A stretch of 5,912 nt of DNA from a virus (IMGVR_UViG_2529292720_000008); one strand, 5' to 3'. Counted from the first letter of the stretch, positions 1 through 5,770 are shown. A program made the numbers and translations. The notes: generated by a model not told the origin, from the letters alone.

Positions 1-963
1 AAAAACCCCCGTTATGAGTTGTGCGCCACAGTACAGGAAGCACTAAAACCCGTTACGGTGAAGGAAGCGATTAACTACTGGCTGGAGGAATACGCGAAGG
101 ATAACCGCAAAGATTACATAAAGCTGGTGCAGCGTATGGATAAGCACATCATTTGCCATATTGGGGCAATTCCCCTTGATAAGTGTGATACAAGGCAGTG
201 GATCGCATGTTTTGACCGCGTACGAAAAAAAGCACCAGTAGCAGCGGGCCATGTCATGCAGACATGCAAACAGGCGCTAAAGTTTTGCCGCAGGCGGCGC
301 TACGCGTTTAGCAACGCCCTGGACGATTTGATCGTTACTGATGTGGGTAAGAGAGCAGAAATCCGCGAGAGAGTGCACAGCAACAGCGAACTAAAAGAAA
401 TTCTACGCGCTATTGATGGTGATGTGTTCGCTCCCTATTACAGTGCGTTAATGCGCTTGTTAATTGTGTTCGGGTGCAGAACGGCAGAGATCAGACTTTC
501 AGAGATCAAAGAATGGGATCTGAAAGAAATGTTGTGGACAGTGCCAAAAGAGCACAGCAAAACGAAGGTCGCCATATTCAGGCCAATACCGGAAAGCATT
601 TTACCGTTCGTCACGCAGCTGGTGGAGCAGAACAGACACACAGGGCTATTACTCGGGGAACTGAAACAGGAAGCCAGTGTGTCGCAATACGGCAGATTCA
701 TGCACAAAAAATTAAACCATCCGCACTGGTCACTACACGATATACGGCGCACGTTTACCACGATGCTGAACGATTTAGGCGTGGATCCGCATATTGTCGA
801 ACAACTCACCGCTCACCAGATGCCAGGGATGCAGCGAGTCTATAACCACTCCCGTTATCTCGATGCGAAACGTAATGCGCTGGACATGTGGACAGAGCGG
901 TTAGAGATACTGGCGGGTACTCACAAAAACGTAACCACACTGCCAATAGCCAGAGAAATATAA
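1..963 (+). CDS. int: Tyrosine recombinase / phage-type integrase, C-terminal portion; 5' end is outside the window (frame is open from position 1)
   Basis: Frame open from nt 1 to stop at 961-963. Translation carries the catalytic-domain hallmarks of tyrosine recombinases: conserved Arg in GCRTAEI, the HDIRRTF His-x-x-Arg box, and the C-terminal VYNHSRY tyrosine region, followed by a P4-type tail (LDAKRNALDMW). The TTG at 19 is only the ORF finder's first start, not the real one. Confidence 0.9.
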   Translation, partial: KNPRYELCATVQEALKPVTVKEAINYWLEEYAKDNRKDYIKLVQRMDKHIICHIGAIPLDKCDTRQWIACFDRVRKKAPVAAGHVMQTCKQALKFCRRRRYAFSNALDDLIVTDVGKRAEIRERVHSNSELKEILRAIDGDVFAPYYSALMRLLIVFGCRTAEIRLSEIKEWDLKEMLWTVPKEHSKTKVAIFRPIPESILPFVTQLVEQNRHTGLLLGELKQEASVSQYGRFMHKKLNHPHWSLHDIRRTFTTMLNDLGVDPHIVEQLTAHQMPGMQRVYNHSRYLDAKRNALDMWTERLEILAGTHKNVTTLPIAREI

Positions 964-1330: not shown

Positions 1331-1519
1331 GTGTTAAGCACAGATCGCTTTATACGTGAAAAAGAATGTCAGCAACTTACAGGCCTGAGCCGTTCATGTC
1401 GGTACCGCCTGGAAAAAACCGGACAATTCCCATCACGGCGTAAGCTCGGCGGTCGTTCCGTTGGCTGGTCTTTATCCGAAGTTCTGGCATGGAAGGAAAG
1501 CTGCGAGGCAGTTCACTAA
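1331..1519 (+). CDS. alpA: AlpA-family (Phage_AlpA / MerR-like HTH) transcriptional regulator or excision activator, 62 aa
   Basis: Translation VLSTDRFIREKECQQLTGLSRSCRYRLEKTGQFPSRRKLGGRSVGWSLSEVLAWKE matches the AlpA pattern (TG-x-SR-x-x-Y ... FP ... LG-x-RSVGW ... E-x-x-x-W). GTG start at 1331 has a strong Shine-Dalgarno AAAGGGGGAA at 1319-1328. The in-frame ATG at 1163 lacks an RBS and would add a non-homologous 56-aa extension. Confidence 0.8.
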   Translation: MLSTDRFIREKECQQLTGLSRSCRYRLEKTGQFPSRRKLGGRSVGWSLSEVLAWKESCEAVH

Positions 1520-1571: not shown

Positions 1572-2047
1572 ATGAATACTGGATATTCTCCCGAACAAGG
1601 GCGGGGCTTCGTTCGTCCTGAAAAACAGAATCTGCAAAATTTTGCCGAAATTATTCCGGTTATTTCCGGCCTTACTGGCGGGAGTGAAACCAATATTGTT
1701 AACGCCAGAGCGTTGCAGATGTTTGATGATAAAAAGGGAGTAAATTTAACTTACACCCCTGACGGCAATCAGAATATGAGCATTATCTCTGAGTCAGGTT
1801 TCTACAAACTAATAAAAACAAAAAGCGCCCCGTTGCCGGAGCGCCTTTGTGAACAATTAACCTACTGCGCAAAAAATGAATCTGAGCAGTGGGATTATAT
1901 CAACCGTGTGGCGAAGCGCCACAATTGCCGGATAACAGGCAAAACAAAGGCCACCCGCTACGGTGGCCCCTCGACACAAGCTACACGTTATCCCCAACGC
2001 ATGAGCATCACCAACAATGCCACATTTGCGGCTGGTGGGCAATGTGA
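1572..2047 (+). other. Possible coding region of uncertain status (start of a 470-codon stop-free frame); may be a decayed gene or a frameshifted remnant
   Basis: ATG at 1572 opens a frame whose first ~120 codons look protein-like (including an SESGFYKLI segment that faintly recalls the E-x-G-L-Y-x-L-I core of Bro-N/antirepressor proteins, from memory). There is no in-frame stop until 2984, and the middle of the frame (2050-2580) is Ser/Cys/Arg-rich, antisense-like translation. No boundary can be supported. Confidence 0.2.
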
Positions 2048-2221
2048 TCAGTCAGATTTGGTTCGTTCCAAGGTTTGCAACGAGAGCTTTTTCCTGTGCT
2101 CTTTAAGGAATTTCTCAAGAGCAAAAGCACATGGCGCGAATCTTTCTGATTCATGCTCTATCTTTCTGCGCCGTCTTTTCCGTGCCGGTGATAATGTTTT
2201 GGTCAATTCTTTATCGGTCAT
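2048..2221 (-). CDS. Small basic hypothetical protein (57 aa from the second ATG; the track start at 2236 gives 62 aa)
   Basis: Minus-strand ORF with charged, protein-like composition (MTDKELTKTLSPARKRRRRKIEHESERF...), in contrast to the junk-like plus-frame translation over the same DNA. AGGA lies 7 nt upstream of the second ATG. It sits directly downstream of the leftward RHH-like gene. No family recognised. Confidence 0.25.
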   Translation of the reverse strand: MTDKELTKTLSPARKRRRRKIEHESERFAPCAFALEKFLKEHRKKLSLQTLERTKSD

Positions 2222-2278
2222 TGTGTTGTCCTGCATAGCAATGCGCCGTAATACCTTACACCACGGCGCTGGTGATGG

Positions 2279-2551
2279 TCACTCCTGCTCTTTGGCCTTG
2301 CGACGCTGGAGTTCTTCACGCGCGACGGTGATGAGTTGCCCGATCTCCTCGGCTGCTTTGACTCCGATTTTTTCCACCTGCGCCAGTGCATCGAGCGAAG
2401 AAACCAGGGGATTTTCTCCGCTTCCTTCTGCCTGGCGGCGGGCGATCTCACCGCGAACGGCTGTAATCACGAAAGCGGCTATTGTTTCCCCTTCCGTTTT
2501 CGAATTTTCCATTTCCTCGATTACATCATGGGGGAAGCGGATATTTTTCAT
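2279..2551 (-). CDS. Putative ribbon-helix-helix-like DNA-binding protein, candidate repressor of the divergent rightward operon (90 aa; alternative start at 2584 gives 101 aa)
   Basis: Minus-strand ORF whose N-terminus (MKNIRFPHDVIEEMENSKTEGETIAAFVITAVRGEIARRQ) fits a beta-strand / helix / turn / helix RHH layout, with a helical charged C-terminus. The overlapping plus-frame translation is low-complexity. It is transcribed away from the palindrome-rich region at 2585-2780. The fold call comes from pattern only. Confidence 0.45.
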   Translation of the reverse strand: MKNIRFPHDVIEEMENSKTEGETIAAFVITAVRGEIARRQAEGSGENPLVSSLDALAQVEKIGVKAAEEIGQLITVAREELQRRKAKEQE

Positions 2552-2605
2552 TTGCGATCTGCTGTTGATATTTCCTGTTGCCATCAGAATGTCCGGTTAT
2601 TTTGA

Positions 2606-2709
2606 GGTGTGCATACATTACACCAAAAGGTGTGTAAATAAAACACTTGACACTGTAGCGCACTTAAATTTAATCTGTACACACACCAATGATTGTGGTG
2701 TATGTACAG
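2606..2709. promoter_or_regulatory. Divergent control region: rightward sigma70-like promoter (-35 TTGACA 2647-2652, 16-bp spacer, -10 TTTAAT 2669-2674) flanked by two palindromes built from GGTGTG/CACACC half-sites
   Basis: Consensus -35 hexamer and a 5/6 -10 hexamer at correct spacing. Upstream inverted repeat ACACC-aaaa-GGTGT at 2620-2633. Downstream 14-bp-arm inverted repeat CTGTACACACACCA (2675-2688) / TGGTGTATGTACAG (2696-2709) with one mismatch, overlapping the predicted transcription start. Further GGTGTG copies at 2606 and 2629. Confidence 0.55.
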
Positions 2710-2780
2710 CAAAGCCCCGCAGTGCTGGAACACATGCAGGGCTTCTAACCACCAACGATAGCGAAAGTATCGAGGTAGCT

Positions 2781-2984
2781 ATGAGAAATTATACCAGACA
2801 CCCGCAAGGGCGGGACTCGTACAACCTGAATAAATACATCTGGCGTTTTATCGCCCTGAGCACGGCACAACCGCGCGTGATTACCATTGAGGCCACCAGC
2901 GAACAGGAAGCGCGTCAGCAATCTCCTGATGGCTGCGTGATGGTATTCGCTGCCCGTATTCGCCAGGGGGAACACCATGATTAA
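2781..2984 (+). CDS. Icd-like small protein (host cell division inhibitor Icd-like family, as commonly annotated in P4-like prophages), 67 aa
   Basis: ATG at 2781 preceded by GAGGT at 2772-2776. Translation MRNYTRHPQGRDSYNLNKYIWRFIALSTAQPRVITIEATSEQEARQQSPDGCVMVFAARIRQGE fits my recollection of the Icd-like pattern (W-x-F-x-A-x-S ... SE-x-EAR ... FAAR). First gene downstream of the promoter; the stop overlaps the next start. Confidence 0.55.
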   Translation: MRNYTRHPQGRDSYNLNKYIWRFIALSTAQPRVITIEATSEQEARQQSPDGCVMVFAARIRQGEHHD

Positions 2985-3186
2985 CCTGTCACTTACCGAC
3001 CTTAACCGCGTTCAGTTTCGTGAGAAATTTACCGGGCAGCTACTGGTCAATGTGGATAAAGGTCGCGTGGTGTGTAATTACCACCTGCCAGATGAAGCCA
3101 TTGTCGCAACAAGGGAATCATTACAGGAACTCGCAGAACGTGCCGGAATGATTAACGCGAATATTCAGGGGGTGAGCCATGCATAA
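2977..3186 (+). CDS. Uncharacterised small protein, 69 aa; paralog of the next gene
   Basis: ATG at 2977 with SD GGGGG at 2966-2970; start overlaps the upstream stop (ATGATTAA). Shares an alignable core with the next ORF (FTGQLLVNVDKGRVVCNYHL versus YTGRVLVYLEKGRVKCQCRL, and ...AERAGM versus ...TKSGV). Confidence 0.6.
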   Translation: MINLSLTDLNRVQFREKFTGQLLVNVDKGRVVCNYHLPDEAIVATRESLQELAERAGMINANIQGVSHA

Positions 3187-3391
3187 TCATGAAACGCACT
3201 TACCTGTAGTGCTGAATGTGCCATCAGATTATACGGGGCGCGTACTGGTGTATCTGGAAAAAGGCCGGGTTAAATGTCAGTGCCGTTTAATGGAAAACGA
3301 ATTTATTAGCACTCTTGCGGGATTTTCTGAAATGCTCACTAAATCGGGTGTTAGTGCAGACCAGTTACGCGGGGGCGATTATGCGAAATAA
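3179..3391 (+). CDS. Uncharacterised small protein, 70 aa; tandem paralog of the 2977-3186 gene
   Basis: ATG at 3179 with SD GGGGGG at 3166-3171; overlaps the upstream stop (ATGcaTAA). About one third identity to the preceding protein when aligned by eye, including conserved TG, KGRV and Cys positions. Confidence 0.6.
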   Translation: MHNHETHLPVVLNVPSDYTGRVLVYLEKGRVKCQCRLMENEFISTLAGFSEMLTKSGVSADQLRGGDYAK

Positions 3392-3599
3392 ACATGATAT
3401 TGAAGACCTGGCATTTGAAGCCCTGCACTCTGCGAAAAAAATCAGGGAAGTCGTCAATATGTGGATGAACAGCCTTAGCACCGATGAATCCGATAGCAGA
3501 GAGGAAATTCTTATTTCTTTGTTGTTAGACCTGGCAAATACACAGGTTTCTCTGACATCTGATATTGAACTCGCCGCTAAAAATCTGCCTCTGGAGTAA
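3381..3599 (+). CDS. Uncharacterised small acidic, predicted helical protein, 72 aa
   Basis: ATG at 3381 with SD GGGGG at 3371-3375; 11-nt overlap with the upstream gene. The ORF-track start at 3315 lies inside the upstream gene and lacks an RBS. No family recognised. Confidence 0.5.
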   Translation: MRNKHDIEDLAFEALHSAKKIREVVNMWMNSLSTDESDSREEILISLLLDLANTQVSLTSDIELAAKNLPLE

Positions 3600-3605
3600 A
3601 AAAAC

Positions 3606-3905
3606 ATGAAACAGAAAAATTCTGGCTTTACTGCCAGTGGTCTCCCTCGGCCTGAAATCCGCCCCGGTGATATTTTCCGGGATAACTACGGTGGCACGGT
3701 AACGATTAAAAGCGTGGCGGGGCGGTGCGTTACTTACCGCCGTGATGGGTACGGCTATGACTGCGTGATGCCTGCTTATCAGTTCCGGCGTGATTTTTCA
3801 CTGATACAGGCCACACCACGCAAACAGCCCACCAGCAACGCAAAGGCACGGGCAAATATTCAGAAAATGAAAAACATGATTAACGCATTCAGGGGCAAAA
3901 AATGA
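3606..3905 (+). CDS. Uncharacterised small basic protein, 99 aa, translationally coupled to rep
   Basis: ATG at 3606 with GGAGT upstream; its stop overlaps the rep start (ATGA at 3902-3905). Gly/Arg/Tyr-rich core (GDIFRDNYGGTVTIKSVAGRCVTYRRDGYGYDCVMPAYQFRRDF) suggests a small beta-rich domain. No family recognised. Confidence 0.5.
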   Translation: MKQKNSGFTASGLPRPEIRPGDIFRDNYGGTVTIKSVAGRCVTYRRDGYGYDCVMPAYQFRRDFSLIQATPRKQPTSNAKARANIQKMKNMINAFRGKK

Positions 3906-5317
3906 AACTGGCACCGAACTTAAAAAAACAGCCACACGACAAAATGACCGAAGTCATTATTTTTGCGGGTAGTGATGCCTGGGCGCACGCGAAACAGTGG
4001 CAGGAACAGGACGGGCGACTTGCTGGTGATAACGTCCCGCCTGTATGGCTGGGAGACAGCCAGCTTGACGAACTGGCAGACCTGAAAATTATCGACGATG
4101 GTCGCTATTGTGTCCGGCTGTACAAGGCAGGCCACATCAAGCCGTCAAATATTAATGCTATCGGGCAAAAGCTGGCGGCGGCAGGTGTACGGGATGCGAA
4201 TTATTACCCTGATGGAATGCACAGCCAGAAGCTGGAGAACTGGCACGACTACCTGCAACGGATCCGCGAACAGGCAGAGCGCGGGGAAATACTTACTGAC
4301 GAGCAATACAGCCAGCGAAAAACCACGCTACCAATGAGCATTGGATCTGCAGGGTACGACACACAGCTTGATTATGTCGTTAAGGGCGTGATTCCGGCTA
4401 ATTCATTGTGCAGCACATACGGCGCGAGCGGTTCCTATAAATCGTTCCTCGCGTGTTCCTGGGCGTGTCATGTTGCCACTGGCCGTCACTGGGGAGGCCG
4501 CAGGGTGGCGCATGGTTCGGTGATGTATGTTGTCGGTGAAGGTGGCATTGGTGTCCCCCGCCGTATCAAGGCATGGGAAATCGTTAATGATGAACGGGTG
4601 GAAAATCTGTACCTGGTAAACCGCCCGATTTTTCCGGCAGTCCCGCTTGATGTTGATGAAATGGTCATCGCTTCCCGCCAGGTTGAACGGGAAACGGGTA
4701 AACCGGTACGCATGATTATTCTTGATACGCTGGCGCGTTGCTTTGGCGGTAATGATGAAAATGACGCGCGGGATATGGGGGCGTTTATCCGTGGATGTGA
4801 CGAACTGAAACGCCGCACAGGGGCCACGGTGCTGGTGGTTCACCATTCCGGCAAGGATGAAACAAAGGGGGCGCGTGGTTCCAGTGCATTTCGTGCATCT
4901 CTGGACGCTGAATACCGTATTCGCCGTGAAGGTGCAGACAGTGAAGCCCTGGTTATCTCCTGCACAAAAATGAAGGACGCGGAGGAACTGAAAGAGGCCG
5001 CATACGATTTACGTGTGGTGGAGCTTTTTACCGACACTGACGGGGAGTTAATCACGTCGCTGGTTGTTGTGGATAAGCCGCGCCCACCCGTTGAACTGGA
5101 GCGCATCGAGGAAGCCGGGAACAAGACGGAGAATCATGCCGCGCTATGGGGCTGTATCCGTTCACGCACACAGCGCGGAGATAAATGCACTATTCCGTTG
5201 TTGCGCGATGATATGAAAAAGCTGGGGTATGAGATGAAACACTTCCGGCGCTGGCTGTACAAGCTGGAAGGTGATGGCGTTATTGCTATTGACGGTGATG
5301 ACGTGCGCCCACTGTAA
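3902..5317 (+). CDS. rep: Replication protein: RepA-like / DnaB-like RecA-fold ATPase (AAA_25-type) with an uncharacterised N-terminal ~150-aa domain, 471 aa
   Basis: Walker A GASGSYKS at nt 4421-4444, Walker B-like hydrophobic stretch with Asp (RMIILDTLA, around nt 4709-4735), and the VLVVHHSGKDETKGARGSSA motif typical of RepA-like helicase/ATPase cores. Ends immediately upstream of an iteron cluster. The alternative start at the MTEV Met (nt 3944) cannot be excluded. Confidence 0.85.
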   Translation: MKLAPNLKKQPHDKMTEVIIFAGSDAWAHAKQWQEQDGRLAGDNVPPVWLGDSQLDELADLKIIDDGRYCVRLYKAGHIKPSNINAIGQKLAAAGVRDANYYPDGMHSQKLENWHDYLQRIREQAERGEILTDEQYSQRKTTLPMSIGSAGYDTQLDYVVKGVIPANSLCSTYGASGSYKSFLACSWACHVATGRHWGGRRVAHGSVMYVVGEGGIGVPRRIKAWEIVNDERVENLYLVNRPIFPAVPLDVDEMVIASRQVERETGKPVRMIILDTLARCFGGNDENDARDMGAFIRGCDELKRRTGATVLVVHHSGKDETKGARGSSAFRASLDAEYRIRREGADSEALVISCTKMKDAEELKEAAYDLRVVELFTDTDGELITSLVVVDKPRPPVELERIEEAGNKTENHAALWGCIRSRTQRGDKCTIPLLRDDMKKLGYEMKHFRRWLYKLEGDGVIAIDGDDVRPL

Positions 5318-5518
5318 AAAGTGGGTAGTAAAAGTGGGGAGTGTGGGGAATTTAACAAAATTGAAACGTGATTCCCCACTTTCCCACCTGTATATACCCC
5401 AAAAAGTGGGGAATAAAAAACACATTGAAAAACATCACGTTAGAATCACAAAAAAAAGAAGTGGGGAGACGTTGGGTAATTTCAAAAAGTGGGTAGTAAA
5501 AGTGGGGAGCAGTGAGGA
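5316..5518. repeat. Iteron cluster, putative origin of replication: at least 8 copies of AGTGGGGA-like 8-mers in both orientations, a 26-bp perfect direct repeat (5316-5341 and 5484-5509), and an A-rich tract
   Basis: Read directly: AAAAAGTGGGTAGTAAAAGTGGGGAG occurs twice. Additional GTGGGGA / TCCCCAC copies at 5334-5340, 5342-5349, 5373-5380 (inverted), 5381-5388 (inverted variant), 5405-5412 and 5461-5467. A-rich segment at 5411-5460. Position right after rep fits a rep-ori arrangement. Confidence 0.7.
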
Positions 5519-5770
5519 ATGACCAGAAAAACCAGAGATAAGACAGCGCCAAAATATAAAGCGTTAGACATGACAGAGCACGCCTTAAAGGTGGCAATCA
5601 GAACGATAGACCGCCACGCTGGGGAAGGATACGCGAAAGCACACCCCGAACTGATAAGCGCATTCATGACCACGACGGCGGCAAACTTTGCCACGCTGAC
5701 AGAACGGGAGATTGCCGAAGCGGAACAGGTGACAACCATCAACGTTAAAACTGGAGAGCAGACAGCATGA
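5519..5770 (+). CDS. Hypothetical protein, 83 aa
   Basis: ORF with ATG at 5519 (GGGGAG at 5504-5509 as a possible SD); its stop overlaps the next start (ATGA at 5767-5770). Helical, Ala/Thr-rich translation. No family recognised. Confidence 0.4.
   Translation: MTRKTRDKTAPKYKALDMTEHALKVAIRTIDRHAGEGYAKAHPELISAFMTTTAANFATLTEREIAEAEQVTTINVKTGEQTA

What the first reader, a model, noticed from the sequence alone, without database searches (positions are those of the whole stretch)
2781..5317. Six consecutive genes joined by overlapping stop/start junctions
Every junction from the Icd-like gene to rep is overlapping or nearly so: ATGATTAA at 2977, ATGcaTAA at 3179, an 11-nt overlap at 3381, a 6-nt gap at 3600-3605 and ATGA at 3902. 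Three consecutive starts reuse a GGGGG Shine-Dalgarno. This implies obligatory translational coupling and fixed stoichiometry between the small proteins and Rep, as if they act as one module.
Basis: seen in the sequence. Interest (0 to 1): 0.4.

Follow-up and report, generated by a model that had tools for sequence, protein, structure and literature searches.

The report
Phage-satellite replication operon with overlapping genes
The six overlapping genes are real, but they are the ordinary early/replication operon of an E. coli phage satellite built like the classic satellite P4. The tight joints most likely keep ribosomes on the message from start to finish, rather than fixing the proportions of a protein complex.

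Summary
Observation confirmed. Five junctions link six + strand genes from 2781 to 5317: -8, -8, -11, +6 and -4 nt. Three of them have GGGGG Shine-Dalgarno runs.

The window is the left half of an E. coli PICI-type phage satellite: int, alpA, an immunity region, this operon, a RepA-type helicase and an iteron origin.

The first gene belongs to the same family as P4 Kil. P4's own operon has the same layout: vis/eta -4, kil/epsilon -8, epsilon/orf151 -8, ending in alpha.

In 78 related satellites, 329 of 340 junctions between icd and rep are 7 nt or tighter. The genes between them are shuffled: 17 families in 27 orders. Only DUF4222 always sits directly before rep. Tightness is therefore conserved while content is not, which argues against a fixed-stoichiometry complex.

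The chain also extends upstream. The Icd frame is open for 1209 nt back to ATG 1572, just after alpA, as in P4 eta/kil. That long frame contains:
- an antisense RHH repressor gene;
- four operator copies;
- a covariation-supported antisense RNA that covers the icd ribosome-binding site.

Best reading: a P4-like design in which continuous translation prevents polarity and entry is controlled at the first start sites. This is inferred, not shown. The finding is a new member of a known kind, of modest interest.

The parts
19..963 (+). 3' part of the tyrosine integrase gene, at the left end of the satellite.
   Evidence: ORF. Annotated as a tyrosine recombinase in the 97%-identical E. coli locus L001.
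1331..1519 (+). alpA (AlpA/Vis family regulator). GTG start, preceded by GGGGG at 1322-1326.
   Evidence: Pfam Phage_AlpA, E 2.7e-18. AlpA is the activator of Gram-negative PICIs (PMC6092414).
1572..2984 (+). Eta-like long ORF of 470 codons, in the same frame as the Icd-like gene, which forms its last 67 codons. It has a weak Bro-N remnant at its N-terminus. The middle part runs antisense through two minus-strand genes and the regulatory region.
   Evidence: Stops between the alpA stop and ATG 2781 number 1, 23 and 22 in the three + frames. None of 20000 randomisations stayed open. The same open frame occurs in other genera and in IMG/VR relatives. PGAP calls it a 470-aa Icd-like protein in L001. 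Bro-N match E 0.09.
1821..1971 (-). Two terminator-like hairpins (1821-1848 and 1946-1971) that would end the leftward ylcI-orf62 transcript.
   Evidence: Terminator scan: 12-bp and 10-bp stems followed by T runs on the minus strand.
2048..2236 (-). Small minus-strand ORF (62 aa) downstream of the repressor gene.
   Evidence: ORF. Detected in 62 of 80 IMG/VR relatives at 59-100% identity.
2279..2584 (-). YlcI/YnfO-family gene (101 aa), the candidate immunity repressor. My reading of the N-terminal sequence is a ribbon-helix-helix fold. It is transcribed divergently from the operon and lies antisense inside the long ORF, with third codon positions of the two frames coinciding.
   Evidence: NCBIfam NF041551, 64 bits; phrog_6522, E 1e-48. 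Present in 77 of 80 relatives at 28-100% identity, with matching locus-specific operator repeats. AT skew turns negative over 1951-2700, as expected for minus-strand coding. Frame relation.
2606..2710 (.). Operator cluster: four copies of GGTGTRTRTACA (2606, 2629, 2676 reversed, 2697). They flank a TTGACA -35 hexamer at 2647-2652, the candidate promoter for the short Icd-like form.
   Evidence: Pattern search: 6 matches against 1.26 expected, 5 of them within 105 nt. TTGAC is conserved in the alignment of relatives. The consensus promoter scan did not flag it because the -10 is weak.
2708..2796 (-). Candidate cis-antisense RNA of about 73 nt (2780 down to 2708), with its extended -10 promoter TGGTATAAT at 2796-2788 inside icd codons 3-6. 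It is complementary to the SD and leader of the Icd-like gene.
   Evidence: Weak Rfam symR matches at the same place and strand in three loci: 25.4, 35.9 and 27.6 bits, all below the gathering score of 61. The RNAalifold consensus energy is -13.5 kcal/mol on the minus strand against -6.3 on the plus strand. 97.9% of cells pair on the minus strand against 91.5% on the plus strand; 8 pairs show compensatory changes; 0 of 500 shuffles reach the observed values. The -10 is conserved.
2781..2984 (+). Gene 1: Icd-like / P4 Kil-like protein (67 aa), the short form of the long ORF.
   Evidence: NF033153, 70 bits. P4 Eta's C-terminus hits the same model at 73 bits. A relative's Icd is 44% identical to P4 Kil, E 9e-14. 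The family profile matches Kil with probability 96.6%.
2977..3186 (+). Gene 2 (69 aa, phrog_340). Overlaps gene 1 by 8 nt (ATGATTAA). SD GGGGG at 2966-2970.
   Evidence: Present in 20 of 80 relatives.
3179..3391 (+). Gene 3 (70 aa, phrog_340), a paralogue of gene 2. Overlaps it by 8 nt (ATGCATAA). SD GGGGGTGA at 3168-3175.
   Evidence: BLASTP between genes 2 and 3: 29% identity, E 3e-9. Present in 13 of 80 relatives.
3381..3599 (+). Gene 4 (72 aa, unknown function). Overlaps gene 3 by 11 nt. SD GGGGG at 3371-3375.
   Evidence: Weak phrog_2196 match. Present in 11 of 80 relatives.
3606..3905 (+). Gene 5: DUF4222 protein (99 aa). Follows gene 4 after a 6-nt gap (3600-3605). SD GGAG at 3593-3596.
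   Evidence: Pfam PF13973, E 7e-24. Directly upstream of rep in 78 of 78 elements. The AF2 model (pLDDT 77) shows a small beta-barrel plus a basic C-terminal helix, with no significant PDB match.
3902..5317 (+). Gene 6: Rep, a RepA-type (AAA_25) helicase of 471 aa. Overlaps gene 5 by 4 nt (ATGA).
   Evidence: Pfam AAA_25, E 3e-44; phrog_2850 over the full length. Residues 136-468 are conserved in 80 Enterobacterales loci, while the N-terminus varies.
5315..5510 (.). Replication origin: two sets of iterons (AAAAAGTGGGTAGTAAAAGTGGGGAG at 5316 and 5484, plus a copy at 5400) around an AT-rich centre.
   Evidence: Repeat families D1 and D6 and inverted repeat I3. This matches the Gram-negative PICI origin layout described in PMC6092414.
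5519..5912 (+). 83-aa gene (5519-5770) followed by the start of ssb (ATG 5767). They are joined by another ATGA overlap.
   Evidence: L001 annotation: 17488-17739 and 17736-18160.

Best explanation
The six genes are the early/replication operon of an E. coli PICI-type phage satellite, built on the same plan as the left operon of satellite P4.

Gene order: AlpA/Vis-family regulator, then a long Eta-like ORF whose last 67 codons are also made separately as an Icd/Kil-like protein, then a variable set of small genes, then the replication helicase, then the origin.

Proposed mechanism:
- The stop/start overlaps let a terminating ribosome restart on the next gene, so the message stays covered by ribosomes from the first start site to rep.
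- This protects a long transcript full of small genes from Rho-dependent premature termination (polarity).
- It also makes rep expression depend on ribosome entry at the upstream start sites, where control is concentrated.

Control points seen in the sequence:
- a divergent YlcI/YnfO-type repressor gene with four operators at the local promoter;
- a small antisense RNA that covers the ribosome-binding site of the Icd/Kil-like gene;
- the AlpA-dependent upstream promoter, whose transcript is translated through the long ORF.

Shown here: the junctions, the identities of the genes, the homology to P4 Kil, the family-wide conservation of tight junctions with shuffled content, the long open frame, and the conserved antisense RNA structure.

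Inferred: that coupling actually occurs, that its benefit is avoidance of polarity, and that the repressor and the RNA act as proposed.
For: Identity of the element:
- The window is 97% identical to a 10.5-kb island between abgR and smrA in E. coli 90-9280. That island carries int, alpA, this operon, ssb, capsid, decoration and terS genes.
- The origin iterons are.

P4 parallel:
- P4 Eta's C-terminus hits the same Icd-like model (73 bits).
- Kil is 44% identical to a family member (E 9e-14).
- P4 junctions are vis/eta -4, kil/epsilon -8, epsilon/orf151 -8 and orf106/alpha +14.
- PMC10111431 summarises Forti et al. 1999. Kil is translated from a promoter internal to eta. [quoted passage not shown] Eta translation prevents termination, so the transcript reaches the downstream genes. 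[quoted passage not shown]

Conservation of tightness without conservation of content:
- 329 of 340 junctions are 7 nt or tighter in 78 elements, across 27 gene orders drawn from 17 families.
- In other genera, 47 of 67 junctions directly upstream of rep are that tight.

Continuous ORF cover:
- The Icd frame has 0 stops in 403 codons upstream of ATG 2781, against 23 and 22 in the other two frames between the alpA stop and that ATG.
- The median open length is 796 nt in relatives, against 18 and 0 in the other frames. It reaches the alpA stop in 27 of 53.
- In other genera the long ORF starts 10 nt after alpA, behind a strong SD.
- In L100, even a bona fide C4 RNA gene (72.7 bits) lies inside a second translated Icd-like ORF.

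Control elements: operators; antisense RNA structure with covariation and a minus-strand preference; its conserved -10.

No internal promoter or terminator signal lies between 2781 and 3902.
Against: - No expression data exist. Coupling, Rho dependence and the antisense RNA are all unobserved.
- Every downstream gene has its own SD, and the DUF4222 and rep start sites look accessible, so independent initiation may suffice.
- In this window the long ORF starts 52 nt after alpA behind a weak SD, not 10 nt or -4 as in relatives and P4.
- About 12 relatives (the L002 type) have a stop that breaks the fusion of the long frame to icd (the second open frame was examined in L002 only). The nested form is therefore not indispensable.
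- No C4/CI-type RNA was found in the window.
- The symR matches are far below Rfam's threshold.
- Tight packing is common in phage DNA in any case.
Confidence: 0.55

Rival explanations
1. One reading: the overlaps enforce obligatory coupling so that the small proteins and Rep are made in fixed proportions, because they assemble into one replication complex.
For: - The junction geometry fits coupling.
- DUF4222 sits directly before rep in 78 of 78 relatives, joined by ATGA in 75 of 76 scored junctions, whichever Rep type follows (466-471, 582-605 or 706-710 aa).
- Huber et al. 2023 (PMC10666635) report that overlapping pairs often encode subunits of complexes.
Against: - Genes 2-4 are present in only 11-20 of 80 close relatives and are replaced by unrelated families.
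- They accompany Rep homologues in only 2-4 of the loci surveyed (80 from other species plus two close E. coli loci).
- DUF4222 allele identity does not track Rep allele identity (rho 0.19, p = 0.11).
- Rep plus ori alone replicated a plasmid for EcCICFT073, although that is a different allele.
- Coupling sets a dependency, not a fixed ratio.
Confidence: 0.12
2. Passive compaction. The overlaps are a by-product of selection for a small genome that must fit a capsid, together with the ease of evolving ATGA-type overlaps. They have no regulatory role.
For: - The satellite is about 10.5 kb.
- 59% of junctions in an ordinary lambdoid prophage are equally tight, with runs of up to 6.
- The -4 and -8 spacings are the classes that arise most easily (PMC12548453).
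Against: - Tightness here is much greater than in the prophage (97% against 59%, p = 6e-13).
- It is local. The same element tolerates gaps of 367 nt (int-alpA), 52 nt and 201 nt elsewhere.
- Compaction does not explain an open frame kept across a 196-nt promoter/operator region and an antisense gene.
Confidence: 0.15
3. The junctions are recombination linkers. Short sequences shared at gene boundaries allow small-gene cassettes to be swapped between satellites, and the overlap format is simply carried along with them.
For: - Unrelated upstream genes end in near-identical strings (ATTC..CAGGGGGTG..CCATG..TAA).
- The same downstream gene appears behind different partners with the same joint.
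- There are 27 gene orders among 78 elements.
- This view is compatible with the main explanation.
Against: - The shared strings are short (about 15-20 nt) and double as SD plus start codon, so convergence is an alternative.
- No breakpoint mapping was done.
Confidence: 0.1
4. The operon doubles as an abortive-infection or superinfection-exclusion module, with the Icd/Kil-like protein as the toxic effector. This would resemble the ECOR61 locus, where an Icd-like gene plus five linked genes including a primase were all needed for cell death triggered by a phage accessory gene.
For: - Silas et al., bioRxiv 10.1101/2023.04.06.535777: Tn5 suppressors fell in an Icd-like gene and the next two small overlapping genes. 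All six linked genes were needed to reconstitute the effect.
- The architecture is the same as here.
- P4 Kil kills cells when over-expressed (Forti 1999, cited from memory and through).
Against: - The ECOR61 sequence could not be fetched, so homology beyond the Icd-like domain is untested. Its gene sizes differ (122, 62 and 64 aa).
- No PADLOC model matched the operon genes or the long ORF; the one sub-threshold match was to the repressor gene.
- Polar Tn5 effects could explain the ECOR61 genetics.
Confidence: 0.08

Closest known systems
Left (early/replication) operon of satellite phage P4: vis - eta/kil - epsilon - orf151 - orf106 - alpha
   Same: - An AlpA/Vis-family gene comes first.
- It is followed by a long ORF whose C-terminal 65-67 codons are a separately translated Icd/Kil-family protein.
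- The next genes are joined by -8 overlaps.
- The operon ends in the replication protein.
- Regulatory elements lie inside the long ORF.
- Translation of eta/kil is known to prevent premature termination (PMC10111431).
   Different: - No CI/C4-type RNA was detected in the window. In its place are a divergent YlcI/YnfO-type protein gene with operators and a SymR-like antisense RNA.
- The long ORF is 470 codons against 199, and starts 52 nt after alpA instead of overlapping it.
- The replication protein is a RepA-type helicase without a recognisable primase domain, not alpha.
- The small genes are unrelated.
- The island has no sid, delta or psu.
Gram-negative phage-inducible chromosomal islands (EcCICFT073 and relatives; zones Integration / Bro / Replication / Late)
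   Same: int, alpA, mostly unidirectional genes, pri/rep followed by an origin with two iteron sets around an AT-rich centre, then capsid and terS genes.
   Different: - This window's element is not among the PICIs named in the passages I read, and no comparison with the reference PICI set was made. Its closest matches are unnamed islands in E. coli genomes.
[quoted passage not shown] Here a candidate repressor with operators is visible.
Translational coupling of overlapping gene pairs (termination-reinitiation; -4, -1 and -8 spacing classes)
   Same: Co-directional genes with -4, -8 and short positive spacings, and SD sequences inside the upstream gene.
   Different: - The -8 and -11 classes dominate here (154 of 340 junctions), rather than -4 far ahead of -1 and -8.
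- Dependence of downstream translation on upstream translation is untested.
P1 immI region (c4 RNA - icd - ant)
   Same: - An Icd-family first gene whose translation is controlled by a small RNA and which leads into downstream genes.
- One relative (L100) carries a genuine C4 RNA and a1b1 targets inside a second Icd-like ORF.
   Different: - C4 is a trans-acting RNA encoded on the same strand; the candidate RNA here is cis-antisense.
- The downstream genes are replication genes, not an antirepressor.
- The P1 details are from my own knowledge and were not checked in a paper here.
SymE/SymR (an antisense RNA of about 77 nt covering the start region of a toxic gene)
   Same: Same size, a two-hairpin layout, a start next to the target's start codon, and a promoter inside the target's first codons.
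   Different: - Scores of 25-36 bits are far below Rfam's 61-bit threshold.
- The target protein is unrelated to SymE.

Membership tests
Gram-negative PICI | Integrase at one end, followed by an AlpA-family regulator in the same direction. | tested here: met
   int 19-963 and alpA 1331-1519.
Gram-negative PICI | A replication gene followed by an origin with two iteron sets flanking an AT-rich stretch. | tested here: met
   Rep 3902-5317 (AAA_25). Iterons at 5316, 5400 and 5484. Layout as described in PMC6092414.
Gram-negative PICI | Small island (about 10-17 kb) at a specific chromosomal site, lacking most phage structural and lysis genes. | tested here: met
   The 97%-identical copy in L001 spans about 10.5 kb between abgR and smrA. 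Its only late genes are capsid, decoration and terS. The window itself covers only the left half.
Gram-negative PICI | Induction, replication and packaging depend on a helper phage. | not testable with these tools
   Requires experiments.
P4-type eta/kil nested genes with translation-dependent read-through | The first translated gene of the operon is an Icd/Kil-family protein of about 65 aa. | tested here: met
   NF033153 gives 70 bits for the window gene and 73 bits for P4 Eta's C-terminus. Profile against Kil: probability 96.6%.
P4-type eta/kil nested genes with translation-dependent read-through | That gene is the end of a longer in-frame ORF that begins next to the alpA/vis homologue, upstream of the local promoter. 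| tested here: met
   ORF 1572-2984, with no stop in 403 codons upstream of ATG 2781. The gap to alpA is 52 nt here, 10 nt in relatives and -4 in P4.
P4-type eta/kil nested genes with translation-dependent read-through | An immunity RNA of the CI/C4 type with its target sites lies inside the long ORF. | tested here: not met
   No C4, c4-a1b1 or isrK match in the window at E up to 10. The same search finds C4 at 72.7 bits in relative L100.
P4-type eta/kil nested genes with translation-dependent read-through | A Rho-dependent terminator is overcome by translation of eta/kil. | not testable with these tools
   Requires transcript analysis with nonsense mutants and Rho inhibition.
P4-like satellite (as a whole element) | Carries sid, delta, psu and an alpha-type primase. 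| tested here: not met
   None of these is annotated in the complete island in L001. Rep has no primase domain hit in Pfam.
Translationally coupled gene chain | Co-directional genes on one transcript, with overlaps or very short gaps. | tested here: met
   Spacings of -8, -8, -11, +6 and -4. No internal promoter or terminator signal between 2781 and 3902. That scan is only a consensus match, so the 'one transcript' part is inferred.
Translationally coupled gene chain | Downstream translation depends on translation of the upstream gene. | not testable with these tools
   Indirect evidence only: family-wide conservation of tight junctions. Predicted RNA structure gives no clear occlusion of the start sites.
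SymR antisense RNA (Rfam RF01809) | Score at or above the Rfam gathering threshold of 61 bits. | tested here: not met
   25.4, 35.9 and 27.6 bits in three loci. It resembles SymR in design only.

The most novel reading that the evidence does not exclude
In this PICI lineage the whole transcription unit from alpA to rep is kept continuously translatable. A 470-codon Eta-like 'carrier' ORF has absorbed a complete immunity region. That region comprises a divergently transcribed RHH repressor gene encoded antisense within the ORF (third codon positions of the two frames shared), its four operators and promoter, and a SymR-like cis-antisense RNA gene over the Kil/Icd start site.

This would be a protein-plus-RNA immunity system replacing P4's CI RNA. 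It would also supply the 'missing' repressor of Gram-negative PICIs. The overlapping small-gene chain would then be the downstream half of a ribosome relay that makes rep expression an all-or-none readout of those controls.
Probability: 0.35. Interest if true: 0.55.

Novelty: new member of a known kind. Interest (0 to 1): 0.33.

Why it matters
- **For the finding as stated:** little. Tightly overlapping early operons are normal in phages and satellites, and this one copies the P4 plan.
- **Lesson for annotation:** the 470-aa 'Icd-like protein' that PGAP calls in some genomes, and the 67-aa form it calls in others, are probably two products of one nested gene.
- **Open question on PICI regulation:** how Gram-negative PICIs are kept silent and then switched on is only partly understood. 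AlpA is the known activator, and the existence of a repressor was left open in PMC6092414. This locus offers a concrete, testable candidate: a repressor with operators, plus an antisense RNA.
- **Natural experiment:** 78 elements with shuffled genes but fixed junctions could be used to separate translational coupling from polarity.

Tried and rejected
- **EcCICFT073:** I guessed its position in CFT073 (1.40-1.45 Mb). That region is a lambdoid prophage. I used it only as a baseline for junction spacing.
- **Phage collection, DNA:** megablast of the whole window found no match.
- **Phage collection, protein:** tblastn with the Icd-like protein gave one hit, the PICI-like 'phage' vB_KppS-Ant. P4 was missed, and direct BLASTP of the window protein against the P4 'cI' ORF (the Eta C-terminal region) was not significant (E 4.5). 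Homology had to be shown through family members, a profile and NCBIfam.
- **PADLOC:** no defence model matched the operon genes or the long ORF. The only listed match was a sub-threshold Cas5f/Csy2 hit to the YlcI-like protein (E 0.0047, 14 bits), which I treat as chance.
- **PDB by sequence:** nothing for DUF4222, Rep or gene 3.
- **DUF4222 model:** Foldseek gave only generic SH3/KOW-like barrels at E of 0.02 or worse, which is not enough to assign a function.
- **Junction RNA folding:** no local structure was more stable than shuffled sequence (z between -0.9 and +1.4). I therefore dropped the 'RNA unfolding' form of coupling as a specific claim.
- **DUF4222-Rep co-variation:** not significant, so I dropped the idea that they co-evolve.
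- **Forti et al. 1999 (PMC94026):** not held. It is cited through PMC10111431 and from memory.
- **ECOR61 contig QOYT01000045:** could not be fetched.
- **First chain-walking script:** it skipped genes of about 65 aa and produced false gaps of about 195 nt. This was corrected.

Full report
**1. The observation**

- Gene 1 (2781-2984) and gene 2 (2977-3186) share ATGATTAA.
- Gene 2 and gene 3 (3179-3391) share ATGCATAA.
- Gene 3 and gene 4 (3381-3599) overlap by 11 nt.
- Gene 5 (3606-3905) starts 6 nt after gene 4.
- Gene 5 and rep (3902-5317) share ATGA.
- GGGGG runs lie 5-6 nt before the starts at 2977, 3179 and 3381.

A start-site scorer that uses only the Shine-Dalgarno match and the start codon, and ignores the upstream stop, picked the same five downstream starts. 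The consensus scan found no + strand terminator-like site inside the operon. It found no promoter-like site before rep.

GGGGG is not over-represented in the window as a whole: 10 found against 10.2 expected. Its placement before start codons is what matters.

**2. What the region is**

The window is 97% identical to an island of about 10.5 kb between abgR and smrA in E. coli 90-9280 and four other genomes. Looser matches occur in 1888 of 5426 complete E. coli genomes.

The island reads: integrase, alpA, the region studied here, an 83-aa gene, ssb, major capsid, head decoration, an HTH protein and terS. This is the layout of a Gram-negative phage-inducible chromosomal island (PICI; PMC6092414; PMC10111431).

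Gene identities:

| Gene | Coordinates | Identity |
|---|---|---|
| 1 | 2781-2984 | Icd-like, NF033153, 70 bits |
| 2 and 3 | 2977-3186, 3179-3391 | both phrog_340; paralogues (29% identity, E 3e-9) |
| 4 | 3381-3599 | unknown function |
| 5 | 3606-3905 | DUF4222 |
| 6 | 3902-5317 | RepA-type AAA_25 helicase |

Directly after rep lie two sets of iterons around an AT-rich centre. That is the origin layout described for these islands.

**3. Is the tight chain special?**

- Against host DNA, yes. Only 1 of 9 co-directional junctions flanking the island is 7 nt or less.
- Against phage DNA, not on its face. In a PGAP-annotated lambdoid prophage of CFT073, 29 of 49 junctions are that tight, with a longest run of six.
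- Across relatives the picture sharpens. A search of IMG/VR with an alignment of Icd-like proteins returned 80 loci whose Icd-like protein is 89-100% identical to the window's.
  - In 78 elements (77 of those loci plus the window), I could walk from icd to rep with the blind start picker.
  - They gave 340 junctions: 85 at -4, 102 at -8, 52 at -11 and 85 at +1 to +7. Only 11 exceeded 40 nt.
  - That is 97% tight against 59% in the prophage (Fisher p = 6e-13).
- In Rep-bearing loci from other Enterobacterales genera, 47 of 67 junctions directly upstream of rep are also tight.
- An independent annotation of a related element, vB_KppS-Ant, shows -4, -8, -4 and -17 leading to its primase.

**4. 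Tightness is conserved, content is not**

- Among the 78 elements, the genes between icd and rep fall into 17 families arranged in 27 different orders, with 2 to 6 genes per chain.
- The window's order occurs in only 3 elements.
- Genes 2, 3 and 4 are detectable in 20, 13 and 11 of the 80 loci.
- In the survey (80 Rep-bearing loci from other species plus two close E. coli loci), they were detected in only 2-4 loci.
- Only DUF4222 is constant. It lies directly before rep in 78 of 78, joined by ATGA in 75 of 76 scored junctions, whichever Rep type follows (466-471, 582-605 or 706-710 aa).
- Even so, DUF4222 identity does not track Rep identity (Spearman 0.19, p = 0.11). The gene beyond the origin does track it (0.47).
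- An AlphaFold model of DUF4222 (pLDDT 77) shows a small SH3/KOW-like beta-barrel and a basic C-terminal helix. It has no significant PDB match.
- For another E. coli PICI, rep plus ori alone maintained a plasmid.

Together these results speak against a fixed-stoichiometry complex of all six products. A DUF4222-Rep partnership remains possible but unproven.

**5. The P4 connection**

PHROG labels the Icd-like family 'transcriptional repressor'. P4 is the one place I saw that label: the GenBank record names the 'cI' ORF (137 aa) 'transcriptional repressor'. That ORF covers the Eta/Kil C-terminal region. The link between the two labels is my inference.

- P4 Eta (199 aa) hits the same Icd-like model over residues 146-193 (73 bits).
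- P4 Kil is 44% identical to the Icd-like protein of relative L034 (E 9e-14).
- The family profile that includes the window protein matches Kil with probability 96.6%.
- P4's own junctions are vis/eta -4, kil/epsilon -8, epsilon/orf151 -8, orf151/orf106 +135 and orf106/alpha +14.

PMC10111431 summarises Forti et al. 1999 as follows:
- Kil is translated from a promoter internal to eta.
- Full-length eta is translated only from the upstream promoter and is translationally coupled to the alpA homologue.
- Eta translation prevents termination, so transcription reaches the downstream genes.

I could not read Forti et al. directly. My recollection of its abstract agrees with this summary.

**6. The chain continues upstream**

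- The Icd frame is open from ATG 1572, 52 nt after the alpA stop, to 2984.
- Between the alpA stop and ATG 2781 the three + frames contain 1, 23 and 22 stops.
- In 20000 randomisations, which kept the two minus-strand proteins and shuffled the rest, the frame never stayed open. The 196-nt regulatory region alone stays open with probability 0.016, and the stretch antisense to ylcI with probability 0.19.
- The same holds in other genera: stop counts of 0/12/19, 0/14/16, 1/18/21, 1/14/16 and 2/17/16. In the three of those loci where alpA was located (L034, L042, L047), the long ORF starts 10 nt after the alpA stop, behind GGGGTGGG or a close variant.
- In the IMG/VR set, the median open length upstream of the icd ATG is 796 nt, against 18 and 0 in the other frames. 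It reaches the alpA stop in 27 of 53 loci.
- About a dozen loci (the clone D i14 type, L002) break the fusion. In L002, the one such locus examined, a second frame stays nearly open to 19 nt before the icd ATG.
- PGAP calls the 470-aa form in some genomes and the 67-68-aa form in others.
- Apart from a weak Bro-N remnant, the long product has no domain. Its middle part looks like antisense sequence. The AT skew shows that 1951-2700 is compositionally minus-strand coding.

I read the long ORF as an Eta-like carrier that is translated rather than used as a protein. This is an inference.

**7. What is embedded in the long ORF**

- *A repressor gene.* A 101-aa YlcI/YnfO-family gene lies on the minus strand (2279-2584; NF041551 64 bits, phrog_6522 E 1e-48). 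From its N-terminal sequence I read it as a ribbon-helix-helix protein. A 62-aa ORF and two terminator-like hairpins follow it. Its third codon positions coincide with those of the long ORF. It is present in 77 of 80 relatives at 28-100% identity.
- *Operators and a promoter.* Four copies of GGTGTRTRTACA lie within 105 nt around a TTGACA hexamer. Relatives carry different repeats at the same places. This is the pattern of diversifying immunity.
- *A candidate antisense RNA.* Just upstream of the icd ATG are two hairpins.
  - In 51 distinct sequences they show 8 pairs with compensatory changes, and 0 of 500 shuffles reach the observed values.
  - On the minus strand 97.9% of cells pair, against 91.5% on the plus strand. 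At two positions, G-U pairs on the minus strand (31 and 10 sequences) correspond to A-C mismatches on the plus strand.
  - The RNAalifold consensus energy is -13.5 kcal/mol (minus) against -6.3 (plus).
  - An extended -10, TGGTAT(A/G)AT, is conserved on the minus strand inside icd codons 3-6. It is placed to start an RNA at about 2780.
  - Rfam's SymR model matches this spot on this strand in three loci at 25-36 bits, well below its 61-bit threshold.
  - I conclude there is a candidate cis-antisense RNA of about 73 nt covering the SD and leader of the Kil-like gene. It resembles SymR in design but is not shown to be a member of that family.
- *No C4/CI RNA in the window.* Relative L100 carries a genuine C4 RNA (72.7 bits) and a1b1 targets inside a second, 154-aa Icd-like ORF joined to the first by -8.

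**8. How it most likely works**

- *Silent state.* The repressor holds the local promoter. The antisense RNA blocks the Kil/Icd start site.
- *After helper-phage induction of alpA* (shown for other PICIs). Transcription from the alpA promoter runs rightward and is translated through the long ORF. This also sends RNA polymerase antisense through the repressor gene.
- *Through the chain.* Ribosomes terminating at each stop restart a few bases away, so the message stays covered as far as rep. This avoids Rho-dependent termination across a string of small genes.
- *Replication.* Rep then fires the adjacent origin.

The shown and inferred steps are listed under the best explanation. Two points weaken the word 'obligatory'. 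First, 95% of chain genes have their own SD. Second, the A-rich start regions of DUF4222 and rep are predicted to be open, while the G-rich SDs of genes 2-4 sit in poorly accessible sequence (percentiles 12, 27 and 1), without a significant hairpin.

**9. Other readings**

- Passive compaction fits the small genome. It does not explain the local extremity of the packing or the open frame across non-coding control DNA.
- Junction strings are shared between unrelated genes (ATTC..CAGGGGGTG..CCATG..TAA). They may serve as recombination linkers. This is compatible with the main model and untested.
- A preprint reports an Icd-like gene with five linked genes, including a primase, that is needed for phage-triggered cell death in ECOR61. 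That raises a possible abortive-infection role. I could not compare the sequences, and PADLOC found nothing for the operon genes.

**10. Verdict**

The structure is a new member of a known kind, a PICI version of the P4 left operon. What may be new lies mostly just outside the reported coordinates: the protein-plus-antisense-RNA immunity region carried inside a translated Eta-like ORF.

Noticed in passing
window 1572-2984 (+): The Icd-like frame is open for 470 codons back to just after alpA. PGAP annotates the long form in some genomes and the 67-68-aa form in others. This resembles the P4 eta/kil nested genes.
   Followed up: yes
window 2279-2584 (-), inside the long + strand ORF: A YlcI/YnfO-family gene (read as RHH from its N-terminal sequence) is encoded fully antisense within the long ORF. 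Third codon positions of the two frames coincide in every locus examined. Allele identity ranges from 28 to 100% while the neighbouring icd stays at 89-100%.
   Followed up: partly
window 2708-2796 (-): Candidate antisense RNA of about 73 nt opposite the icd SD and leader. Two hairpins carry compensatory changes and G-U pairs that fit only the minus strand. An extended -10 lies inside icd codons 3-6. Weak symR-model matches occur at the same place in three loci.
   Followed up: yes
window 2606-2710: Four copies of GGTGTRTRTACA lie around a TTGACA hexamer. Relatives carry different repeats at the same positions, which suggests immunity specificity.
   Followed up: partly
window 2802-2815 (+): A GC-rich palindrome, CCCGCAAGGGCGGG, sits in icd codons 8-12. 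It is conserved in close relatives and lies just upstream of the antisense -10. Its role is unknown.
   Followed up: no
window 2977-3391: Genes 2 and 3 are tandem paralogues (phrog_340, 29% identity). Relatives also have a 121-aa form with the same N-terminus plus an extension.
   Followed up: partly
junctions in L085-L164, e.g. family 3 to 2 and family 1 to 4: The G runs at the junctions vary in length (G5 to G9) between otherwise identical joints. This shifts the upstream gene's stop, for example from +3 to -8 or from -8 to -28. It could reflect slippage or sequencing error.
   Followed up: no
L100 2893-3357: A second Icd-like ORF (154 aa) follows the first by -8. It contains a genuine C4 antisense RNA (72.7 bits) and a1b1 target sites, i.e. 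a P1-type immunity cassette inside a translated ORF.
   Followed up: partly
window 3606-3905 and relatives: DUF4222 always sits directly before rep, whichever Rep architecture follows. The same domain also occurs next to the excisionase gene in a CFT073 lambdoid prophage (L083 191-430). The model is an SH3/KOW-like barrel plus a basic helix.
   Followed up: partly
window 3902-4306 (Rep residues 1-135): The Rep N-terminal region is swapped among relatives. Most homologues align only from about residue 136, and total lengths fall into classes of about 470, 590 and 707 aa.
   Followed up: no
window 5767-5770: The 83-aa gene and ssb, downstream of the origin, are also joined by an ATGA overlap.
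   Followed up: no
window 1821-1848 and 1946-1971 (-): Two strong terminator-like hairpins for leftward transcription lie inside the long + strand ORF. Rightward ribosomes would have to melt them.
   Followed up: no
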